Shown piece by piece: positions 1,077 through 47,608 of a stretch of DNA of 64,000 nt (the stretch's first letter is position 1; each line of letters starts with the position of its first letter). The notes beneath the pieces were generated by a model. The model worked only from the letters and a program-made list of their open reading frames with translations, was not told the origin of the DNA and did no database searches. Both the position numbers and the translations under genes were made by a program. Location of the stretch: the IMG/VR virus record IMGVR_UViG_3300042544_003642; one strand, 5' to 3'. Source of the DNA: an uncultured virus (IMG/VR IMGVR_UViG_3300042544_003642) (lineage: Duplodnaviria > Heunggongvirae > Uroviricota > Caudoviricetes).

Positions 1077-1478
1077 ATGTTCGGATTTTTGTCAAATAAG
1101 TTGCTGCTGGTTGGAGTAGGTGCCTTTGTGCTGTTGTCTGGCACTTTTTACATTTATTTCAAACACACACAAACACAACTGCAAATCATGGCTGCTAATG
1201 TGGCCAAAGCTGAGATAGCTATTGACTTACAGAAACAAGCTATCACTCAACTAGAGAACTTTGCACAAGATCAAAAGATCTCCATGGAGATGATGCAAGG
1301 ACGAATGAGCAAAGCTGAAGCTGATAGAGCCAAACTAGCTAAAGCTATCAAAGACTTGAATATTGTAGGCAATGCCCAGGTTGATAGGAAACAACTTCAA
1401 ATCAACTTGAACAATCAATTGAATGAGTTGTTCAACTCAGCTGTTGAAGGGACAAAAAATGCGCCAACTACCCCTTAA
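1077..1478 (+). CDS. putative inner-membrane spanin (N-terminal TM + coiled coil)
   Basis: N-terminal hydrophobic helix and coiled coil; overlaps a downstream lipoprotein gene and lies next to a holin-like gene. Confidence 0.55.
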   Translation: MFGFLSNKLLLVGVGAFVLLSGTFYIYFKHTQTQLQIMAANVAKAEIAIDLQKQAITQLENFAQDQKISMEMMQGRMSKAEADRAKLAKAIKDLNIVGNAQVDRKQLQINLNNQLNELFNSAVEGTKNAPTTP

Positions 1479-25366: not shown

Positions 25367-25475
25367 TTGCCATCGAGGTTGGAACAGCCTCCCAACACAC
25401 CATGAGAATGGTAACTAGCCGGCAGCAATCACCTAGCTGGTGAAGAAATCCGGAAGTGGCATCCGGCGATGGCGA
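25367..25475 (+). ncRNA. tRNA-like RNA lacking a 7-nt anticodon loop
   Basis: gccatcg/cgatggc acceptor, ccgga-7-tccgg T-arm, accat-GAGA-atggt. Confidence 0.45.
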
Positions 25476-26211: not shown

Positions 26212-26697
26212 ATGAAAATAAGTGAAATCACCTTACCAAAAACGCGATGGGATGCACATGGTATTCTTGTAAAAGCTGGATATAAGAGATTGGGCAGCGG
26301 AGCATTTGCTTCTGTTTATGAAAAACCTGGCCGCCCATATGTTATAAAGTTGTTCGGTAGTGAAGACAGTGCATATCGTGCATTTATTGATCTAGCAAGA
26401 AAACATCCAAACAAACATTTTCCAAAGTTTTTTGGTAAATTGATTCGCTTTCCTGATTTTTATGGTATAAGAATGGAAAAACTCTCACCATATAAAGGAA
26501 ACTCCAGGTATATCCGAGATTACATCTTGTTTGGAGAAGACGAGACAGAAGAAATCATGCATCGGCCAGAATTAGCAGAAGCATGCGATTTGATCACGAC
26601 TTTGCTGGGAAAATACAATCTCGATATCAAGAATGATAATATTATGCAGAGAGGAAATACCCTTGTGTTTATTGACCCAGTTTGGGGCAAAGAATAA
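26212..26697 (+). CDS. minimal protein-kinase-like protein
   Basis: LGSGAFASVY, VIK, MEKL, DIKNDNIM, IDP. Confidence 0.75.
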   Translation: MKISEITLPKTRWDAHGILVKAGYKRLGSGAFASVYEKPGRPYVIKLFGSEDSAYRAFIDLARKHPNKHFPKFFGKLIRFPDFYGIRMEKLSPYKGNSRYIRDYILFGEDETEEIMHRPELAEACDLITTLLGKYNLDIKNDNIMQRGNTLVFIDPVWGKE

Positions 26698-26721
26698 AAA
26701 GCAGACGCCAAGAGATAATAT

Positions 26722-26794
26722 CCCAGGTTGAACCAGCGTTCCACCGGCCTTCATACGGCTGAGTGAAAAGGTGCAACTCCTTTGCCTGGGACTA
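26722..26794 (+). tRNA. tRNA(CAT), Met-type, atypical D-arm
   Basis: cggcc-ttCATac-ggctg; cccaggt/gcctggg acceptor. Confidence 0.6.
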
Positions 26795-26879
26795 AAAATA
26801 TAAGTTGACTGACCCCTCAACGCACTTATAATCTGTGTATTGATAGAGAGCGGTGAGGTAGAGACAAAAATAGAGATTA

Positions 26880-26956
26880 TCCCGGACGGGCGCAAGGTGT
26901 GCCAGCAGATTGTTAATCTGTTCATCAGGAAAGTTCGATTCTTTCTCCGGGAGCCA
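26880..26956 (+). tRNA. tRNA-Asn(GTT)
   Basis: gcaga-ttGTTaa-tctgt; CCA. Confidence 0.88.
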
Positions 26957-26964
26957 AAAACAAG

Positions 26965-27403
26965 ATAGGACTGACGATGGTCCTCCCTCAAGGGTTCGAG
27001 TACATGGTTGGGTTAGCGTCCAACTTGCAGCAATGTGCGAAATCACAGCGTCCTCTGGAGCTGGGTGTAATGCCCAGATAGGCAGCCGGTTAAGCCGAAC
27101 AAGCCGGTATATCATACGCAGACACGGCGCTGCATGGTTGCTACAAGGAACATTTTGAGAGAATGGTGTGTAGGGATAGACAAGCGCGACGCCCAGGGTT
27201 GGCCAACTTATGAGACGTGAACCGTTTCCGCACCAGCAAATAGGACTGCCCATGGTCCTCCTGAAAAGGTTTGAGAACATGCCTGGAGTTTATCGCCTAG
27301 GTAGTAACAATGTTTGAAATTTACAGAGGTCTCTGGTGCTACGTGTAACTCGTAGATAGTCAGCCGGTTAAGACGAAAAGCCGGAGTATTTGTTGTTACC
27401 TAC
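26965..27403 (+). ncRNA. large structured ncRNA of two homologous units (~165-180 nt) plus linker
   Basis: Units at 26965 and 27240 share ATAGGACTG..ATGGTCC, ACATG, CTCTGG, TGTAA, CAGCCGGTTAAG..AAGCCGG with compensatory stem changes. Confidence 0.7.
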
Positions 27404-27468
27404 TCTTTACTGGGGTGTCATTCAAGTCTAGAGACGTGTGCAGCCAGCGTCAAACTATAAATATCCTT

Positions 27469-27831
27469 ATGTTGATATTTGAAGTTTTGGCGCCAGCGAA
27501 CACAAGACTGGAATTGGGAAAACAACTACAAAGTATTTTAGATGCTGTGCGTGGTCCAGAAAACAGCCGGGTCAAGTTAACCAAACATCTTCTAGATAAA
27601 ATGTTACAATACAATATTCGTGCCAGTAATGTTGCAGCTATGGTAAAAAAAGCTTTTCGATTCCACAATCGCCCGTTGGCTGAACTGGGAACAAACAACA
27701 GAATCATATTGCGGAAAACAGATAAAACTGGCTTGGTGGTAGTCAAAAACACACACGGTGATTATGTGCTGGCTACTATTGACCCCAATTTGTATAACGT
27801 TAAAAATCCCAGTCCAGAACTGCGTGTGTAG
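27469..27831 (+). CDS. hypothetical protein
   Basis: TATAAATA just upstream. Confidence 0.55.
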   Translation: MLIFEVLAPANTRLELGKQLQSILDAVRGPENSRVKLTKHLLDKMLQYNIRASNVAAMVKKAFRFHNRPLAELGTNNRIILRKTDKTGLVVVKNTHGDYVLATIDPNLYNVKNPSPELRV

Positions 27832-27879
27832 TTGACAGTTTCCTTCTCTCATATATAATTGAAAATAGATAGATATTTG

Positions 27880-29055: not shown

Positions 29056-29094
29056 TTCGTTGACACAGCCTAGTGGACGCCCATATAATTGAGA

Positions 29095-32658: not shown

Positions 32659-33264
32659 TTACCATCTTGCATTATCCTCAAATCCAGCATCTTCTAGTTC
32701 TTTTTGACAATCAAACATGGCACGTTTGCCTTGTCCTGCGTATTTGTTCAAGATTGTTTCAACAGTCGTGTGATTCATTGCTGACCGCAACGAGATACTT
32801 TTGGCTGCCAAACAACGGAGCAGTGGAAGAGTAGGCGTGTAAGGTATAGCCAAGTAATTGAGCTCTGAAGGCATACCTTGGAGTGAGGTTAATGGGTTGA
32901 GGTGACAACTAAAAAGATCACCAACACTGCTGGGAGCACCTTCCAGTGAAGTCAGTTGGTTGTTGAAGCATACGAAACTTCCAACCACATTCTTGGGTGC
33001 AGCTTTAAGTGAAATAAGTTGGTTACTTGAGCCTAAGAAACTTCCACCAACACTCTCTGGCGCCCCGTCCAGTGTGGTTAGTTGGTTGTAATCGCACTGG
33101 AAGTGTCCAAGAACACTCTTGAAACGCACAGGGAACTGGGGTAATTGTCTTTTAAGTATAACATTACCCTGGCAAGTGATCAACCCCTCAGGATCTATTG
33201 TGACTTGGCCTGTTGTTTTGAAATTAGCTTTCAACAAAGCCATTACTTCTTTTTTGTCTACCAT
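32659..33264 (-). CDS. LRR-like array protein 9
   Basis: LRR-like units and conserved ...DAGFEDNARW C-terminus. Confidence 0.85.
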   Translation of the reverse strand: MVDKKEVMALLKANFKTTGQVTIDPEGLITCQGNVILKRQLPQFPVRFKSVLGHFQCDYNQLTTLDGAPESVGGSFLGSSNQLISLKAAPKNVVGSFVCFNNQLTSLEGAPSSVGDLFSCHLNPLTSLQGMPSELNYLAIPYTPTLPLLRCLAAKSISLRSAMNHTTVETILNKYAGQGKRAMFDCQKELEDAGFEDNARW

Positions 33265-34010
33265 CTTGCATTCCCTTCAAATCCAGCATCTTCCAGTTCT
33301 TTTTGGCAGTCAAACATGGCACGTTTGCCTTGACCCATATACTTTTGCAGAATAGCCCGCACCTCGTGTGGCCATCCCATACCCGACCACAGTTTTTTAG
33401 CATTTAAACAACGCAAGAGCGGCAGAGTGGGGCTGTAGTCAATCCATAAAACCCTTACTTCAGTAGGCATTCCTTCAAGTGACTCTAGCTGATTACCCCA
33501 TGCTCTCAACTCGCCAGTGATGGTTTTTGGTGCACCGTGTAGTGAGACTAGTTTGTTTTCCATGCAAAACAAATCATGCACTTTCTCAGGAACATGTTCC
33601 AGTGATGAGAGTTGATTTGTCATACAAGAGAAATTGGCACCAACTGATTTGGGACAGTGTTCAAGGCTTTCTATGTTGTTATTATCGCATTTGAAATCTC
33701 CGCCCACATGTTGAGGCGAACCCAACAAACTGGTGAGTTGGTTGTGGCCACACTTGAAATCTCTACCTACCCAAGAGGGTGCGCCTTCTAGACTCACCAG
33801 ATCGGTATGCTGTACAGCAAAATCGTAGCGTATTTTTCCAAACCTTACCCGCAAGGTTTTTATACCTGGCTTACCATCAAGGTAAGATTTCTCCTTGCTC
33901 TTGACACTGCCTGTGCAGGATATCAATCCTGTGTTGGGATCAACAGAGAGTTTACCTGTGTGAGAGTAATATTTGTCAAAAGTTTTTTTGATCCCGGCTA
34001 GATCTACCAT
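33258..34010 (-). CDS. LRR-like array protein 8
   Basis: Same family; 7-nt overlap with neighbours. Confidence 0.85.
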   Translation of the reverse strand: MVDLAGIKKTFDKYYSHTGKLSVDPNTGLISCTGSVKSKEKSYLDGKPGIKTLRVRFGKIRYDFAVQHTDLVSLEGAPSWVGRDFKCGHNQLTSLLGSPQHVGGDFKCDNNNIESLEHCPKSVGANFSCMTNQLSSLEHVPEKVHDLFCMENKLVSLHGAPKTITGELRAWGNQLESLEGMPTEVRVLWIDYSPTLPLLRCLNAKKLWSGMGWPHEVRAILQKYMGQGKRAMFDCQKELEDAGFEGNARW

Positions 34011-34621
34011 CGTGCATTTCCTTCAAATCCAGAGTCTTCCAAATCTTTTTGGCAGTCAAACATGGCAGCTTTGCCTTGACCTGCATATTTGTTCATGATT
34101 TCTTGAACCTTCTGGGGTGGCTCCGATTCATCAACCCTATGCATGAATACAATTTTTTTGGCAACCAATGCACGTAGCAAAGGCAAAGTGGGCGAATATT
34201 GTAACACTAGTCGCCCTAAACCTTCTTGCGGTATGCCTTCAAGACTTTCAAGTGGATTGCCCACACAACTCAAAGATCCAAGAACTTTTTTGGGTGCACC
34301 TTGCAAGCTCTTGAGCTGGTTGAACCCACATAAGTAGTGTTCGCCAACAGCATCAGGACCGCCTTCAAGAGTTTGTAAATTGTTCTCAGTACAACGAAAT
34401 TCATTGTAGACATATTTGGGAGATCCTTGAAGGCTTGTGAGCCCCATGCCCCCCACATCAAATCCTTCCACTTCATAAAAGCCAACTGGCAACTTCTTAA
34501 CATGCAACATAAGCGTTACGTAACCTTTTGTGCTTATTGTTCCATCAGAATTGATTACAATGCTTTCATTACATTGAAAATAATCATCAAAAGTTTTTTT
34601 GATGTTATCAACGTCTACCAT
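34004..34621 (-). CDS. LRR-like array protein 7
   Basis: Same family. Confidence 0.85.
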   Translation of the reverse strand: MVDVDNIKKTFDDYFQCNESIVINSDGTISTKGYVTLMLHVKKLPVGFYEVEGFDVGGMGLTSLQGSPKYVYNEFRCTENNLQTLEGGPDAVGEHYLCGFNQLKSLQGAPKKVLGSLSCVGNPLESLEGIPQEGLGRLVLQYSPTLPLLRALVAKKIVFMHRVDESEPPQKVQEIMNKYAGQGKAAMFDCQKDLEDSGFEGNARW

Positions 34622-35253
34622 TTTGCATGATCCTCAAATCCAGCGTCTTCCAAATCTTTTTGGCAATCAAACATGGCACGTTTGCCTTGGCCAGCATATT
34701 TGTTCAAAATTGTCTGCACTTTTCCCTTCTCCACAGTGTGAGTGTCGTCAGCAGGCTCTAAAAATATATGCCTTGCTGCCAAGGTACGTAAGAGAGGCAA
34801 ATGTGGTAGATACGGTAACCAAGCTGCATTTTCCACTTTCAACGGAAATCCATCCAAGCTTTTCAACGGATTACCAATGCAATTGAAATTATTGGGTATC
34901 TGGACAGGTGCCCCCTTCAAATCAACAAGTTGATTATGGTCACAGTAGTAGTTCCAACCTACAATTTCTGGCCCCCCACTAAGGCTTTTGAGCATGTTAC
35001 GTGAACAGTCAAAACTCACGCCCACTTCAGGGGGACAGCCTTCCAAGGTTACTAGTGCGTTCTCATCTAACGATAGATTTTCAGTTACAGCTTTGAAGGC
35101 AACTGGCAGTTTTTCAAAACGTGTATAGTGGAGATTCAACAATTGAATATCGCCATTTACTGTTACCAGTCCATCTGATGAAACTTTTGCACTGTTGTAG
35201 TCAAAGCTGAAATGGTCTTTCAATAACTGCAAGATTTCTCGTTTGTTTACCAT
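34615..35253 (-). CDS. LRR-like array protein 6
   Basis: Same family. Confidence 0.85.
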   Translation of the reverse strand: MVNKREILQLLKDHFSFDYNSAKVSSDGLVTVNGDIQLLNLHYTRFEKLPVAFKAVTENLSLDENALVTLEGCPPEVGVSFDCSRNMLKSLSGGPEIVGWNYYCDHNQLVDLKGAPVQIPNNFNCIGNPLKSLDGFPLKVENAAWLPYLPHLPLLRTLAARHIFLEPADDTHTVEKGKVQTILNKYAGQGKRAMFDCQKDLEDAGFEDHAKW

Positions 35254-35906
35254 CTGGCGTTGTCCTCAAATCCGGCATCTTCCAATTCTTTTTGACAATC
35301 AAACATAACACGTTTTCCTTGCCCCAAATATTTTTCCAAAATGTATAACACCTTCCAGGCATCGCTGCCCTCGCTTTGATACGGCCAAAAAATAATCTCT
35401 GGTGCCACCAATGTGCGCAACAAAGGCAGCTGAGTATCATAAGTGATATACAAACTATCTCCAATTTTTTGAGGAAAGCCCTGCAAGCTCTCTAGAGGAT
35501 TGGCTGAACAATTGAACACACTGGGGATTTCTCTAGGTGCCCCTTCCAAATCCTTCAATTGATTTTTACTGCAATTATAACTGCCGCCAAATGTGGGTGT
35601 TTGTGTCGTGCCTATTGTTTTGGGTCCAAACTTCAAACTTTTGAGTTCATTATTGTCACACTCAAAATTCTTACCAACAGTTTCTGGACAACCCTCTAGT
35701 GTCTTGAGTTGGTTGATGCTGAGCATCATACTGCCTTCAATGTGAGAAAATTTCACCGGTAGTTCTTGAAAAGAACTGTGAAATTTGTTGTATAACACAA
35801 CGTCTCCCATGACACTGACTTTGCCAGCTGGATCAACAATGGGGTCCCCATCTACCATGAAATGTTGAGTTAGCGTGTTCAACACATGCTGTTTGACGTC
35901 TACCAT
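35247..35906 (-). CDS. LRR-like array protein 5
   Basis: Same family. Confidence 0.85.
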   Translation of the reverse strand: MVDVKQHVLNTLTQHFMVDGDPIVDPAGKVSVMGDVVLYNKFHSSFQELPVKFSHIEGSMMLSINQLKTLEGCPETVGKNFECDNNELKSLKFGPKTIGTTQTPTFGGSYNCSKNQLKDLEGAPREIPSVFNCSANPLESLQGFPQKIGDSLYITYDTQLPLLRTLVAPEIIFWPYQSEGSDAWKVLYILEKYLGQGKRVMFDCQKELEDAGFEDNARW

Positions 35907-36505
35907 CTTGCATTTCCTTCAAAGCCCGCATCTTCCAGTTCTTTTTGGCAATCAAACAGGGCACGTTTGCCTTGTCCTGCGTATTTGTAAAATATTCCTT
36001 CAATTGTTAGAAGTTTGCTTTGCATAACATTGTGGGCATACAGCATTAGGCCCTGTTGGCAGTTCAAAGCTCGAAGCAAGGGCAATTTATTGTGATAATT
36101 TATGCTCAAGTGTTGGCCTACTCGTTGGGGAAACCCAGCAAGACTCAACACTGGAACCTCTTGTCTAAATCCCACACGACCTGAAACCTCAAGGGGCCCA
36201 CCTGTCATGTCTTTCAAAGGATTTTTGTTGGCAGTGAATCTGCCTCCCACAATCTGCGGACAACCTTCAAGACTGGAGAGTCCACATCTGTCTAAAATCA
36301 AACTGGCATGGCAAACGCCAAATTTTACAGGCAGTTTTCCATTGGGAAACGGTCCTTGTATGGCCAAGAGCACACCATATCCTGGTGTGATCTCCTGCAC
36401 ATTTACTATACCACTATCTTCAATTTGAAAGCGCACCCGGTTGTCTGCCTCACCATTACGAAAATAAGTGTTCAACATGTGCTGAACTTCTTGTTTGTCT
36501 ACCAT
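35900..36505 (-). CDS. LRR-like array protein 4
   Basis: Same family. Confidence 0.85.
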   Translation of the reverse strand: MVDKQEVQHMLNTYFRNGEADNRVRFQIEDSGIVNVQEITPGYGVLLAIQGPFPNGKLPVKFGVCHASLILDRCGLSSLEGCPQIVGGRFTANKNPLKDMTGGPLEVSGRVGFRQEVPVLSLAGFPQRVGQHLSINYHNKLPLLRALNCQQGLMLYAHNVMQSKLLTIEGIFYKYAGQGKRALFDCQKELEDAGFEGNARW

Positions 36506-37098
36506 CTTGCATTTCCTTCAAATCCAGCATCCTCTAGATCTTTTTGACATTCAAACAGGGCACGCTTGCCCTGTCCTTTGTATTTTTCAATTATTTCTTC
36601 AATGGGATTAGTGTTAAAGGATGATGAGCTCAATATTACACCATCTTGGCAAGCTAACGTGCGCAGCAGCGGCAACTTGTCATGGTAAGGCAGTTTAGCA
36701 TAGTCACCCACCCTATCAGGAAAACCATCCAAACTCTCTAATAGGTTTTTCTGCATCCCAAGCCAAAACCTACCTGTGACTTCTTTGGGCCCACCCTTGA
36801 AATTTTTCAATTGATTGCCAAGTGCAACAAAATTGCCTTGGATTACAGGGGGACAACCAACCAAGTCCACGATTTGATTCCGGTCCAATTTTAAGCTGGC
36901 TTTGAACAAGCCAAATCTCACAGGCAACTGACCTCCAGGGAAGGGTTTGTCCTTAATAGTGCGGAGATGGCCGCGACCAGGAGTCAGCTCAAGCACATTA
37001 ACCAAGCCCTCAGGACCTATGTCAAATTTCACAGCGTCATTTGGCTCAAAGAAAAAATACTCTGCCAACAGTTCCAAAATTTCCCTTTTGTCTACCAT
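36499..37098 (-). CDS. LRR-like array protein 3
   Basis: Same family. Confidence 0.85.
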   Translation of the reverse strand: MVDKREILELLAEYFFFEPNDAVKFDIGPEGLVNVLELTPGRGHLRTIKDKPFPGGQLPVRFGLFKASLKLDRNQIVDLVGCPPVIQGNFVALGNQLKNFKGGPKEVTGRFWLGMQKNLLESLDGFPDRVGDYAKLPYHDKLPLLRTLACQDGVILSSSSFNTNPIEEIIEKYKGQGKRALFECQKDLEDAGFEGNARW

Positions 37099-37913
37099 TT
37101 GGCGTTCCTTTCAAATCCTGCGTCTTCCAATTCTTTTTGACAGTCAAACAGGGCTCGTTTGCCCTGGCCTGCGTATTTTTTCAAGATGGTTTCCACTTGA
37201 ATATACTTGCCCCACAGCACAGGCCAAAAATTGACCTTCTGGGCTACCAAAAGCCGTAACAAGGGCAAATCGGATTTGTAACTGACTTCAATCAAATCAG
37301 GAGTTTGGGAGCCTAACCCCTCAAGATTTTCCAAGGGATTGTGATCAAAAATAAACTGCTTGGAAATATTCAAAGAGGCACCTTTGAGTGTTGTGAGCTT
37401 GTTGTTGGTTGCCCAAAAATATTCCACGGTCTGTGGTGCGTCTTGAAGATCAGTCAAGAGATTTTTACTGACATCAAACATACCACCTATTTGCAGGGGA
37501 GCACCTCGCAAACTCACTAAATTGTTGTTGTATGCAATGTATTCTTGTGTAAAGTCTCGTGGACTTCCCAACAAATCTGAGAGTTTATTATTCTGGCAAG
37601 AATATTGTCCTTTTACTGTTTTTGGGCCACCAACCAAGCTGATCAACTGGTTTTCACTGCAATCAAATGTGTCCAAGACAGTGTGAGGACAGCCTTCAAG
37701 TGTTTCCAACTTGTTCCTGTGACAGAGAAAATTGCCTTCCACCACTCCAAATCTCACAGGCAATCGAGAGGTCTCTTTGCTCAACAAAATTGATCCATGA
37801 GCATCTACAACACCTGTATCATGTATAGTGAAAAGGGTACTTTCCCAACCAAAGTATTCATTCAGTAACTGACGAACAGTTGTTTTGTCTTGTGGGAATT
37901 CCTGGTTTACCAT
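37092..37913 (-). CDS. LRR-like array protein 2
   Basis: Same family, more repeats. Confidence 0.85.
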   Translation of the reverse strand: MVNQEFPQDKTTVRQLLNEYFGWESTLFTIHDTGVVDAHGSILLSKETSRLPVRFGVVEGNFLCHRNKLETLEGCPHTVLDTFDCSENQLISLVGGPKTVKGQYSCQNNKLSDLLGSPRDFTQEYIAYNNNLVSLRGAPLQIGGMFDVSKNLLTDLQDAPQTVEYFWATNNKLTTLKGASLNISKQFIFDHNPLENLEGLGSQTPDLIEVSYKSDLPLLRLLVAQKVNFWPVLWGKYIQVETILKKYAGQGKRALFDCQKELEDAGFERNAKW

Positions 37914-38563
37914 CGTGCATTTTCCTCAAAACCCGCATCTTCCAATTCTTTTTGGCAGTCAAACAAAGCACGTTTGCCTTTGCCTGCATAACTGTTCAAA
38001 ATTTTATGTAACTGCTGGAATTTTCCTTCGTTTCCTCGCTTATATTGCATAGGCACAATAAGGTCCACATGCAAGGCTCCTAATGTTCTCAACAGTGGTA
38101 TTGTGGGACTATACGTCAATGTTACCCAAGCAATGCTCTTGGGCAAGTGGTCAAGTGACTCCAGTGGGTTGTCTTGAATCTCCAGATTGTCAGATACTGT
38201 GTCCGGCAAACCTTGTAGAGAAGTCAACTTGTTGCTATTGAGAAGGATACTGCCACTGACCCAATGCGGAAAACTGGTTAACTTTGATAGCAAGTTGAAG
38301 CTGGCGTCGAAATCTCCTTCAATCTCAAATGGGCATCCTTCCAAGGTTCTTAGATTCTTGTTGTTGCAGGTGAAGGTACCATGCACCTTACTGAAACGCA
38401 AAGGTAACTGAGATTGAGGCCGCGTTAGGTGTAAGTCACCAGCCACAACAATCTTACCATCTTGATCAAACATCCAACCAGCTGGATATAAGGCATTGCT
38501 CTCTATCTTGAAGTTCTGGCTCAAGATGGTTTTGGTTTGTTCATATTCCACATCACTTACCAT
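37907..38563 (-). CDS. LRR-like array protein 1
   Basis: Same family. Confidence 0.85.
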   Translation of the reverse strand: MVSDVEYEQTKTILSQNFKIESNALYPAGWMFDQDGKIVVAGDLHLTRPQSQLPLRFSKVHGTFTCNNKNLRTLEGCPFEIEGDFDASFNLLSKLTSFPHWVSGSILLNSNKLTSLQGLPDTVSDNLEIQDNPLESLDHLPKSIAWVTLTYSPTIPLLRTLGALHVDLIVPMQYKRGNEGKFQQLHKILNSYAGKGKRALFDCQKELEDAGFEENARW

Positions 38564-40466: not shown

Positions 40467-40590
40467 GGATCCGTGGTCTAATTGGATAAGGCAAGAGCCT
40501 TCCGGTCCCGCAGGTAGCATTCAAGGTTCGAATCCTTGGGGACCGCTCCTAAGCTCTTCGATGGGGGTTCGAATCCCTCCGGGTCCGCCA
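40467..40590 (+). tRNA. tRNA-Arg(CCT) with 47-nt anticodon-loop insert
   Basis: Canonical 77-nt cloverleaf after removing 40501-40547. Confidence 0.85.
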
Positions 40591-47534: not shown

Positions 47535-47608
47535 GGCCCCATAAGACAAAGGTAGTCAGCTGGACTCTAAATCCAGTGGTGTGAGTTCAAATCTCACTGG
47601 TGCCACCA
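47535..47608 (+). tRNA. amber suppressor tRNA (CTA anticodon)
   Basis: gctgga-ctCTAaa-tccagt; TTCAAAT T-loop; CCA; own promoter upstream. Confidence 0.85.

What the first reader, a model, noticed from the sequence alone, without database searches (positions are those of the whole stretch)
26965..27403. Two-unit ncRNA with reciprocal (hand-in-hand) complementarity
Seen: two homologous units follow tRNA-Asn. Stems covary (CTGGG/CCCAG vs CTACG/CGTAG around a TGTAA loop; GTTGG/CCAAC vs CCTGG/CTAGG; TTGCAGCAA/TTGCTACAA vs GGTAGTAACAA/TTGTTGTTACC) while the linkers are conserved. Unit 1 CTGAC (26971-75) is complementary to unit 2 GTCAG (27359-63), and unit 2 CTGCC (27246-50) to unit 1 GGCAG (27081-85). 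Pairing within a unit would mismatch in both cases. The linker is closed by tggtgtg/cgcacca. Established: phage tRNA regions host large multimerising ncRNAs (GOLLD, ROOL), and phi29 pRNA oligomerises by loop-loop pairing. I do not recognise this as either. Inference: an obligate pseudo-dimeric or oligomeric RNA of unknown function.
Basis: partly seen in the sequence, partly recalled or inferred. Interest (0 to 1): 0.8.

Follow-up and report, generated by a model that had tools for sequence, protein, structure and literature searches.

The report
Tandem double-pseudoknot RNA beside phage tRNAs
Two neighbouring copies of an uncatalogued, intricately folded small RNA lie in the tRNA gene cluster of a giant lake phage, and each copy seems to fold on its own rather than the two clasping each other as first proposed.

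Summary
Two homologous ~141-143-nt units (26967-27107 and 27242-27384, + strand) follow tRNA-Asn, and Rfam has no match for them. Eight phage lineages carry homologues, always inside tRNA arrays. Five carry one unit, one a truncated plus a full unit, one three.

Covariation over 10 distinct rows supports a shared fold: P1, P2, P3/P3a, P5 and P6, plus two pseudoknots within each unit. 95.3% of cells are paired, 19 pairs change on both sides, and 0 of 500 shuffles reach this.

It rests on two bases, and both have partners inside their own unit. A26974 pairs with U27051 (PK1; that column is paired in 11 of 11 units). U27360 pairs with A27373 (PK2; 33 of 33 cells paired, and U-A is the one double change). 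Three of those are lone units, where a homodimer fails too.

Best reading: two old paralogues of a new, independently folding double-pseudoknot RNA. It is co-transcribed with tRNA-Asn, probably freed by tRNA processing, and acts in trans. Its function is inferred only, and no RNA data were available.

The parts
26805..26832 (+). sigma-70-like promoter site (TTGACT, 16 nt, TATAAT; 11 of 12) 48 nt before tRNA-Asn; candidate start of the tRNA-Asn/unit 1/unit 2 transcript
   Evidence: consensus scan only; 20 sites found against 9.8 expected in the 5.5-kb region
26880..26956 (+). tRNA-Asn (GTT), ends 10 nt before P1 of unit 1
   Evidence: not listed among one search's Rfam tRNA matches (ARAGORN call only)
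26967..27107 (+). Unit 1 (PK1 type 'GRCG:CGUC'). P1 26967-71/26980-84. Loop L1 26972-79. P2 26985-87/26992-94. P3 27000-05/27033-38. P3a 27007-11/27020-24. Conserved internal loop 27025-32. PK1 3' strand 27046-52. P5 27061-65/27073-77. J5/6 27078-85. P6 27086-91/27102-07. PK2 27081-83 with 27094-96.
   Evidence: R1 covariance model 149.7 bits; pair counts; P3 read directly
27108..27163 (+). 3' extension of unit 1. It holds a 17-mer (27123-39) identical to L234 348-364, two candidate complements to the P3 internal loop (GCTGCA 27129-34; TTGCTACAA 27139-47), and a T-run at 27155-58.
   Evidence: role unexplained
27164..27235 (+). Linker closed by TGGTGTG (27164-70) / CGCACCA (27229-35). Only short similarities to elements in other loci (AGCGCGACGC; GAACCGTTTCCG).
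   Evidence: sequence read; alignment; the motif B profile does not match it; seen in one lineage only, so no covariation test was possible
27242..27384 (+). Unit 2 (PK1 type 'GCC:GGY'). P1 27242-46/27255-59. L1 27247-54. P2 27260-62/27267-69. P3 27275-80/27310-15. P3a 27282-86/27297-301. Internal loop 27302-09. PK1 3' strand 27324-30. P5 27339-43/27351-55. J5/6 27356-63. P6 27364-69/27379-84. PK2 27359-61 with 27372-74 (U27360-A27373).
   Evidence: R1 138.2 bits
27390..27400 (+). Tail TTGTTGTTACC, complementary over 11 bp (2 G.U) to 27300-27310 (end of P3a plus the internal loop of unit 2)
   Evidence: 0.010 of 1000 shuffled tails pair as well; absent in 6 of 9 units tested; role unexplained

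Best explanation
The region holds two old paralogous copies of a new family of compact small RNA, about 141-150 nt per unit, that lives in the tRNA islands of large lake phages.

Shown by covariation: each unit folds on its own.
- A 5' H-type pseudoknot: P1 (AGGAC/GUCCU) plus PK1, in which 7 of the 8 loop nucleotides face the stretch CAG-NNNN about 75 nt downstream. P2 (GNRA-type loop) and the bipartite P3/P3a, with a conserved 1x8 internal loop (U-N-G-Y-A-R-C-A), sit in the long connecting loop.
- A hairpin P5 with a GNRA-like loop.
- A 3' H-type pseudoknot: the GGC of the conserved junction UAGGYAR pairs with the GCC in the loop of P6 (PK2).

Inferred.
- The units are transcribed with tRNA-Asn from the promoter-like site at 26805-32.
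- They are cut free by the enzymes that trim tRNA ends.
- They then act in trans as stable, tightly folded binding modules for a conserved partner linked to tRNA or translation biology, either a protein or a small ligand, possibly as a decoy. Tandem copies would raise the dose or offer two variants.

The two PK1 'flavours' in the window keep each unit pairing with itself, not with its neighbour.
For: Family and context.
- The pattern scans gave true homologues in 1 further viral lineage (L127), besides 3 records with the region identical to the window's, and 6 metagenome lineages (one search returned 11 loci: 10 true, falling into 7 lineages of which one is L127's own, and 1 chance hit, L224).
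- All lie on the tRNA strand inside tRNA arrays. A tRNA is within 13 nt in 5 of 8 lineages: window, L225, L232, L233, L234.
- None was found in 185,579 prokaryote species genomes with two patterns.

Fold (alignment A5, 10 distinct rows).
- 95.3% of 342 cells are paired, against 78.8% in shuffles.
- 19 pairs change on both sides (shuffles 10.5), with 0 of 500 shuffles reaching any of the five measures.
- Slid controls give 29-51% paired.
- G.U pairs occur in several helices, which fixes the + strand.

PK1.
- Pair 15-102 reads CG:5, GU:3, AU:1, so 9 of 9 paired, and 11 of 11 once all three L127 units are read.
- The truncated unit L228a carries a third flavour with 7 contiguous pairs, GCCCGUG:UACGGGC.
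- Window unit 2 sits on a unit-1-like backbone (75% identical to unit 1, 60-62% to L127/L233) but has the other PK1 flavour. Loop and partner therefore changed together.

PK2.
- 27 of 27 cells are paired in A5 and 33 of 33 over 11 units.
- The only middle-pair change is U-A in window unit 2.

Independence of units.
- One unit in 5 of 8 lineages within +/-1.5 kb, or to the contig end where that is nearer.
- Window unit 1 is closer to the lone units L232 and L234 (82-84%) than to unit 2 (75%).

Transcription. An 11-of-12 promoter match lies 48 nt before tRNA-Asn, and no terminator-like site lies between 26832 and 27468 on the + strand.
Against: - No RNA data: no expression, ends or partner are known.
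- P1 and P2 sequences look invariant partly because every homologue was fished with a pattern that contains them.
- There are only 8 lineages, and PK2 rests on one double change.
- Covariation cannot tell pairing within a molecule from pairing between identical molecules.
- Minimum-free-energy z-scores are unremarkable (-1.8 to +0.7 for seven + strand units; +0.89 for the whole region).
- The computed trans duplexes L1:J5/6 (-6.5 and -8.2 kcal/mol) are not weaker than the cis PK1 (-5.9, -4.7) or PK2 (-5.5, -3.4) duplexes.
- The window-specific tails complementary to the P3 internal loop are not explained.
- Flanks of +/-1.5 kb cannot show that lone units lack a partner elsewhere in their genomes.
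Confidence: 0.6

Rival explanations
Loop L1 of unit 1 (CUGAC) pairs with J5/6 of unit 2 (GUCAG), and L1 of unit 2 (CUGCC) pairs with J5/6 of unit 1 (GGCAG). This would lock the two units of one transcript together.
For: Both duplexes are 5 of 5 Watson-Crick in trans and 4 of 5 in cis. They compute at -6.5 and -8.2 kcal/mol. A26974 and U27360 are both unique to this lineage among the 11 units.
Against: - The same loop bases have cis partners that covary across the family: pair 15-102 is paired in 11 of 11 units.
- U27360 is matched by the equally unique A27373 in its own P6 loop (pair 136-152). The trans model leaves that base unexplained.
- Three lone class-1 units (L227, L232, L234) have a G.G mismatch at this pair, both in cis and as homodimers.
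- The duplex would need C26971/C27246, which close P1.
- Given the cis partners, the cross-unit match comes down to one A:U coincidence, which by my estimate has roughly a 1 in 4 chance.
Confidence: 0.1
2. RNA-only homo-oligomer. PK1 (and perhaps PK2) forms between identical units of different molecules, as in the quaternary kissing loops of ROOL and GOLLD. The two PK1 flavours in the window would keep two assemblies apart.
For: Covariation cannot separate intra- from intermolecular pairing. In ROOL, a kissing loop first read as tertiary proved to be quaternary (PMC12286853, passages seen). The context, phage tRNA islands, is the same. Two orthogonal PK1 sequences sit in one transcript.
Against: PK1 has textbook H-type geometry, with a 1-nt first loop and coaxial stacking on P1, so it needs no partner. 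The unit is small (141-150 nt). L127 carries three units with the same PK1 flavour, so orthogonality is not general. No experimental data.
Confidence: 0.1
3. A new self-cleaving or processing ribozyme that frees itself and the neighbouring tRNA from the tRNA-operon transcript.
For: The fold is a compact double pseudoknot with about 40 invariant positions. A tRNA lies within 13 nt in 5 of 8 lineages. Unit-length tandem arrays exist. A hammerhead-like core lies upstream of the L127 array. HDV-like theta ribozymes are reported next to phage tRNAs (PMC10879173; title and abstract only).
Against: No match to any Rfam ribozyme. The distance to the tRNA varies from 5 to 144 nt. Only one tRNA per array has the element. 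No cleavage data.
Confidence: 0.08
4. A cis-acting leader (riboswitch-like) that controls the downstream ORF (ATG 27468 to 27831).
For: No terminator-like site or strong promoter lies between unit 2 and the ORF. Tandem aptamers are known in riboswitches (recalled).
Against: In L233 and L234 the unit is followed by a tRNA after 12-13 nt, and in L227 by another RNA motif and then a tRNA. No conserved downstream gene and no expression platform. Pfam finds no family for this ORF.
Confidence: 0.05

Closest known systems
ROOL and GOLLD RNAs (large ornate RNAs of phages and prophages)
   Same: Orphan, highly structured, pseudoknotted RNAs encoded near tRNA islands of phages; GOLLD env-38 lies downstream of a Met-tRNA (PMC12286853, passages). 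The window's element is likewise inside a phage tRNA array.
   Different: No match to either Rfam model. The unit is 141-150 nt, against more than 800 nt for many GOLLD members and roughly 580 nt for ROOL (recalled). It occurs as 1-3 tandem units. Multimerisation was not shown here.
skipping-rope RNA (Rfam)
   Same: A small orphan RNA present in the same tRNA region of this phage (25368-25474, 44.5 bits).
   Different: A different model and fold. It does not match the units.
HDV-like theta ribozymes beside phage tRNAs
   Same: Small double-pseudoknot RNAs placed next to tRNA genes of phages that carry suppressor tRNAs (PMC10879173, title and abstract). The window and L234 also carry a CTA-anticodon tRNA.
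   Different: No HDV-family Rfam match. The two pseudoknots here are side by side, not nested. Spacing to the tRNA varies. No evidence of cleavage. TAG looks like an ordinary stop in the window.
ToxI-type antitoxin RNAs (type III toxin-antitoxin) and phage pseudo-ToxI
   Same: Tandem repeats of a pseudoknotted RNA unit processed to monomers. Phages can carry mimics as counter-defence (recalled; abstracts listed).
   Different: ToxI units are about 36 nt (recalled) against 141-150 nt here. No ToxN-like gene among the 12 neighbouring ORFs scanned. Homologues are mostly single units.
phi29 pRNA and tandem glycine riboswitch
   Same: Homologous RNA modules that contact each other through loop pairing or inter-domain contacts (recalled).
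   Different: No Rfam match. The loop bases proposed for inter-unit pairing covary with partners inside the same unit.

Membership tests
GOLLD / ROOL | Match to the family's Rfam covariance model | tested here: not met
   No match at gathering score, nor at E<=10 on 26600-27700
GOLLD / ROOL | Encoded in phages or prophages near tRNA islands | tested here: met
   18 tRNAs in the window, unit 1 lies 10 nt after tRNA-Asn; homologues lie in tRNA arrays; the feature is as stated in PMC12286853
GOLLD / ROOL | Homo-oligomeric RNA-only assembly | not testable with these tools
   Needs native gels or cryo-EM
phi29 pRNA-like intermolecular loop-loop oligomer | Loop bases covary with a loop of another unit, not with a partner in the same unit | tested here: not met
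   Loop column 15 pairs in cis with column 102 in 11 of 11 units. With the proposed J5/6 partner it pairs in 6 of 11 in cis, and it fails as a homodimer in 3 lone units
Tandem riboswitch aptamers (e.g. glycine) | Rfam match; position upstream of a regulated gene with an expression platform | tested here: not met
   No Rfam match. Followed by tRNAs in L233, L234 and L227
HDV-like / theta ribozyme | Nested double pseudoknot with P1 formed by the 5' end; Rfam HDV-type match | tested here: not met
   No match. PK1 and PK2 lie side by side and P1 is a local hairpin
HDV-like / theta ribozyme | Self-cleavage | not testable with these tools
   Needs an in-vitro cleavage assay
H-type pseudoknot (structural class) | Strand order S1a-S2a-S1b-S2b with both helices supported | tested here: met
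   PK1: P1 cols 8-12/21-25, with loop cols 14-20 pairing cols 97-103. PK2: cols 135-137 pairing cols 151-153 inside P6 143-146/164-167. Each has a pair with a double change
Type III TA antitoxin RNA (ToxI-like) | Short (~36 nt, recalled) tandem repeats next to a ToxN-type endoribonuclease gene | tested here: not met
   Units are 141-150 nt. Pfam on 12 neighbouring ORFs shows no such toxin
New family proposed here (tRNA-island double-pseudoknot RNA) | Match to model R1 with P1-P6, PK1 and PK2, on the tRNA strand of a phage tRNA array | tested here: met
   Both window units score 149.7 and 138.2 bits, but they were among the 11 sequences R1 was built from, so this match is by construction. The independent support is the pair counts

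The most novel reading that the evidence does not exclude
The unit is a new class of compact double-pseudoknot RNA with an activity of its own. One option is a self-cleaving or processing ribozyme that shapes phage tRNA-operon transcripts. The other is a module that self-assembles through its PK1 'kissing' sequence into RNA-only oligomers, as ROOL and GOLLD do. In that case the two orthogonal PK1 flavours in this phage would specify two separate assemblies.
Probability: 0.15. Interest if true: 0.85.

Novelty: new variant of a known kind. Interest (0 to 1): 0.5.

Why it matters
Phage tRNA islands keep yielding elaborate RNAs whose functions are unknown, such as GOLLD, ROOL and skipping-rope. 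This element adds a small, tractable one.
- It is about 145 nt, with six helices, two covariation-supported pseudoknots and two GNRA-type loops.
- It occurs in one to three copies and in at least three PK1 'flavours'.
- It is small enough for crystallography, NMR, SHAPE and pull-downs, so a partner or activity could be found quickly. That might throw light on why large phages place structured RNAs among their tRNAs.

For the scan, it is also a worked example. An attractive 'reciprocal complementarity' seen in a single genome dissolved once homologues showed partners for both bases within each unit.

Tried and rejected
- blastn (distant mode) of 26880-27480 against 50,697 phage records: no match.
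- Viral-contig pattern scans that gave only chance hits or the window's own species; 119+ stretches, too unspecific, and only the two-match loci of the window's own species recognised; the rest not inspected; 77 stretches, not inspected; the pattern was mis-specified and excluded the L127 type; 6 other loci, all chance; own species only; 6 other loci, all coding or chance. In one search, 7 of 8 non-window contigs were chance.
- Genome contigs: 0 hits with two patterns.
- The search of earlier findings by sequence and by genome: nothing.
- Sequencing runs: no RNA holder listed. The four lake DNA runs laid were contigs only, showed no variant letters in the stretch, and cannot show expression.
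- Thermodynamic folding: z-scores are not significant on either strand, so stability alone neither supports nor refutes the RNA.
- RNAalifold on raw MAFFT alignments misplaced P3. The CM alignment A5 still leaves both window rows gapped in 4 P3 columns, so their P3 was read by eye.
- A P4 hairpin (CAG/CUG) was considered and dropped in favour of a 7-position PK1. The truncated unit L228a keeps PK1 as 7 contiguous pairs but not CAG/CUG.
- T-box-like codon display in the P3 internal loop: no relation between loop sequence and the neighbouring tRNA's anticodon in 5 lineages (read), so rejected.
- Linker as a member of 'motif B' (found after the unit in L227, L228, L232): the nhmmer profile does not hit it.
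- TAG recoding: TAG ends 20 of 63 long ORFs, and opening TAG lengthens frames less than opening TGA, so no sign of it.
- Prior description. The four IMG/VR contig ids were not found in the searchable supplements of PMC10690425; files 1, 2 and 4 were not searched and may bear on novelty. Four 16-18-nt strings of the motif are absent from the paper library. Keyword searches found nothing.
- (fold of linker pieces) failed on a length limit and was not repeated.

Full report
**What the window is.** The window is part of an IMG/VR virus record of 119 kb that CheckV rates 34% complete. A record with this region identical is 310 kb at 76% complete, so this is a very large phage. DNA runs that hold the stretch are all labelled lake water metagenome. 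The window carries 18 tRNA genes, all on the + strand, and an Rfam skipping-rope RNA at 25368-25474. Small accessory genes lie among the tRNAs: two family-17 glycosyltransferases, a 2OG-Fe(II) oxygenase, a Vut_1 transporter and a Sir2 protein.

**The observation.** tRNA-Asn ends at 26956. Two homologous stretches follow. They align at 79% mean column identity, and BLAST of the first against its own genome finds the second at E 2.1e-18. Rfam has no match in 26600-27700, either at gathering score or at E<=10. The only weak hits there are a Tymo tRNA-like hit upstream (23.4 bits against 40), an antisense fragment inside tRNA-Asn, and a 15-nt fragment.

**Homologues.**
- blastn against 50,697 phage records found nothing.
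- Exact-pattern scans found three viral contigs with the region identical to the window's.
- A P1-loop pattern found one further viral lineage, L127, with three tandem units. The other 7 non-window contigs were chance.
- A P1-P2 pattern in the metagenome collection gave 11 loci: 10 true, in 7 lineages of which one is L127's own, and 1 chance. L225, L227, L232, L233 and L234 have one unit each. L228/229/230 are one phage with a truncated unit followed by a full one. L226/L231 are the L127 phage.
- Two patterns found nothing in 185,579 prokaryote species genomes.
- A covariance model (R1) finds only the two units in the 119-kb and 310-kb records.
- All homologues lie on the tRNA strand inside tRNA arrays. 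A tRNA is within 13 nt after the unit (L233, L234) or before it (window, L225, L232).
- Caveat: every homologue was fished with a pattern that contains P1 or P1-P2, so the invariance of those parts is partly by construction.

**The fold.** On the model-based alignment A5 (10 distinct rows), the structure P1, P2, P3, P3a, P5 and P6 plus two pseudoknots has these counts:
- 95.3% of 342 cells paired, against 78.8% in shuffles.
- 19 pairs with changes on both sides, against 10.5.
- 0 of 500 shuffles reaching any of the five measures.
- Sliding the partners by 1-3 columns drops pairing to 29-51%.

P3 has 5 of 6 pairs with double changes, P3a 4 of 5, P5 4 of 4, P6 3 of 4 and P2 1 of 3. G.U pairs in several helices fix the + strand. 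Both window rows are gapped in four P3 columns of A5. Read directly, their P3 helices are GUACAU/AUGUGC (27000-05/27033-38) and GAACAU/AUGUUU (27275-80/27310-15). Loops L2 (GAAA, GCAA, UCAA) and L5 (UGUAAY or CGAAAN) keep GNRA-like sequences while their stems covary. Thermodynamic z-scores are not significant, so the case rests on covariation.

**Two pseudoknots within each unit.** The units fall into two loop types.
- Window unit 1, L227, L232 and L234 have L1 = UG(A/G)CGAUG and, about 75 nt downstream, CAG-CGUC.
- Window unit 2, L225, L228b, L233 and the three L127 units have L1 = UGCCCAUG and CAG-AGG(C/U).

Pairing L1 with that stretch (PK1) gives CG:5, GU:3, AU:1 at column pair 15-102. That is 9 of 9 paired, with 4 cells changed on both sides, and 11 of 11 when all L127 units are read. 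Two invariant pairs (U-A, G-C) extend PK1 to seven positions, with one or two internal mismatches. The truncated unit L228a carries a third version with seven contiguous pairs, GCCCGUG with UACGGGC. This also argues against the alternative small hairpin CAG/CUG. Window unit 2 is on a unit-1-like backbone (75% to unit 1, 74% to L232, 60-62% to L127/L233) yet has the other PK1 type. Loop and partner therefore switched together.

The second pseudoknot (PK2) pairs the GGC of the conserved junction UAGGYAR with the GCC in the loop of P6. Here 27 of 27 cells are paired in A5 and 33 of 33 over 11 units. The only middle-pair change is U-A, in window unit 2 (U27360 with A27373). Both pseudoknots have H-type strand order.

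**The hand-in-hand claim.** The claim depends on two bases: A26974 in the loop of unit 1 and U27360 in J5/6 of unit 2.
- Both are unique to this lineage among 11 units, and they are complementary.
- A26974 pairs in cis with U27051. Its relatives have G.U there, so G-to-A simply improves the pair.
- U27360 pairs in cis with A27373, a third unique substitution at a position that is C in the other 10 units. The trans model leaves that substitution unexplained.
The three lone class-1 units have G.G there, so neither cis pairing nor a homodimer works.
- In the window, PK1 and PK2 are each broken if formed across units.

Against my reading, the computed trans duplexes (-6.5 and -8.2 kcal/mol) are as strong as the cis ones (-5.9, -4.7, -5.5, -3.4). 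A lineage-specific contact therefore cannot be excluded, and I give it 0.1.

**The 'third stem' and the linker.**
- They are absent in the other 6 of 9 units tested (0.39-0.99).
- They may mask the loop in this lineage. This is unexplained.

The 3' extension of unit 1 holds a 17-mer identical to L234 348-364. In other lake contigs it is joined to different sequence (loose ends). The linker stem 27164-70/27229-35 is there, but it occurs in one lineage only. A ~150-nt covarying 'motif B' that follows the unit in L227, L228 and L232 does not match the linker.

**Mechanism.**
- Shown: the fold and its cis pairings, the tRNA-array context, and the copy numbers.
- Inferred: transcription from the 11-of-12 promoter match at 26805-32 through tRNA-Asn and both units, with no terminator-like site before the ORF that starts at 27468. 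Release by tRNA-end processing, given the 5-13-nt spacing to tRNAs. Action in trans as a stable, tightly folded binding module.
- A leader role is unlikely because tRNAs, not genes, follow the unit in three lineages.
- Ribozyme and RNA-only-assembly readings stay open. The ROOL/GOLLD cryo-EM paper shows that covariation once read as tertiary can be quaternary.
- No RNA holder is listed among the runs, so expression is untested.

**Comparison and novelty.** The element works like the orphan ornate RNAs of phage tRNA islands (ROOL, GOLLD, skipping-rope) but is not a member of any Rfam family. It differs in size, fold and tandem copy number. I found no description of it.
- The contig ids are absent from the searchable supplements of the 10,006-candidate IMG/VR survey (PMC10690425). 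Three of its files could not be searched and may bear on this.
- Motif strings are absent from the paper library.
- Keyword searches gave nothing.

I rate it a new variant of a known kind, with interest 0.5.

Noticed in passing
window 25368-25474 (+): Rfam skipping-rope RNA (44.5 bits, gathering score 36.7), 270 nt after tRNA-Lys. It is a second orphan RNA in the same tRNA region.
   Followed up: no
window 47535-47608 (+); L234 1435-1510: tRNA with a CTA anticodon (ARAGORN labels it 'tRNA-Pyl'), which could read amber codons. It is present in two lineages that carry the RNA. TAG still ends 20 of 63 long ORFs in the window, so there is no sign of general TAG recoding.
   Followed up: partly
window 40467-40587 (+); L127 230-349 (-); L234 6-162 (+): Rfam tRNA matches that span 120-157 nt and that ARAGORN did not call. 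They may be intron-containing or otherwise interrupted tRNAs.
   Followed up: no
L227 1650-1806 (+); L228 530-690 (-); L232 2055-2215 (+): 'Motif B': a second conserved RNA of about 150 nt with several covarying hairpins. It lies 10-400 nt after the unit in three lineages and ends in a T-arm-like hairpin. No Rfam match, and not found in the window by nhmmer.
   Followed up: partly
L127 about 1189-1235 (-); L226/L231 equivalents: A hammerhead-like core (CUGAUGAG, hairpin, CGAAAC, hairpin, GUC) with an open stem I lies about 150 nt upstream of the three-unit array. Rfam Hammerhead_3 scores only 19.7 bits. The L226 variant has CUGAAGAG.
   Followed up: partly
window 27123-27139; L234 348-364: An identical 17-mer (CACGGCGCTGCATGGTT) inside a ~45-nt similar stretch. 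It lies 3' of unit 1 in the window but about 375 nt 5' of the unit in L234. Lake contigs join it to yet other sequence. It may be a mobile RNA module.
   Followed up: partly
L228 845-964 (-): A truncated unit (P1, P2, P3 and a perfect 7-bp PK1, then a different 3' end) sits directly 5' of a full unit. It may be a minimal form of the 5' domain.
   Followed up: partly
window 32659-38563 (-): Nine consecutive ORFs of about 200-270 aa, each overlapping the next by 7 nt. This looks like a tandem array of paralogous genes.
   Followed up: no
window 27832-27859 and 29060-29089 (+): Perfect 12-of-12 sigma-70 consensus promoters (TTGACA, 16-18 nt, TATAAT). Together with the 11-of-12 site at 26805-32, they suggest host-polymerase transcription of short tRNA/accessory-gene units.
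   Followed up: no
window 26725-26815 (+): Weak Tymovirus tRNA-like hit (23.4 bits, gathering score 40, E 0.021) with a T-arm-like GGUGCAACUCC hairpin, just upstream of the promoter-like site.
   Followed up: no
window 27240-27289 versus lake contigs (records 6 and 10): Lake metagenome contigs hold a further diverged copy of the unit: 8 differences over 50 nt, then a different P3. The family is therefore larger than the 8 lineages collected.
   Followed up: no
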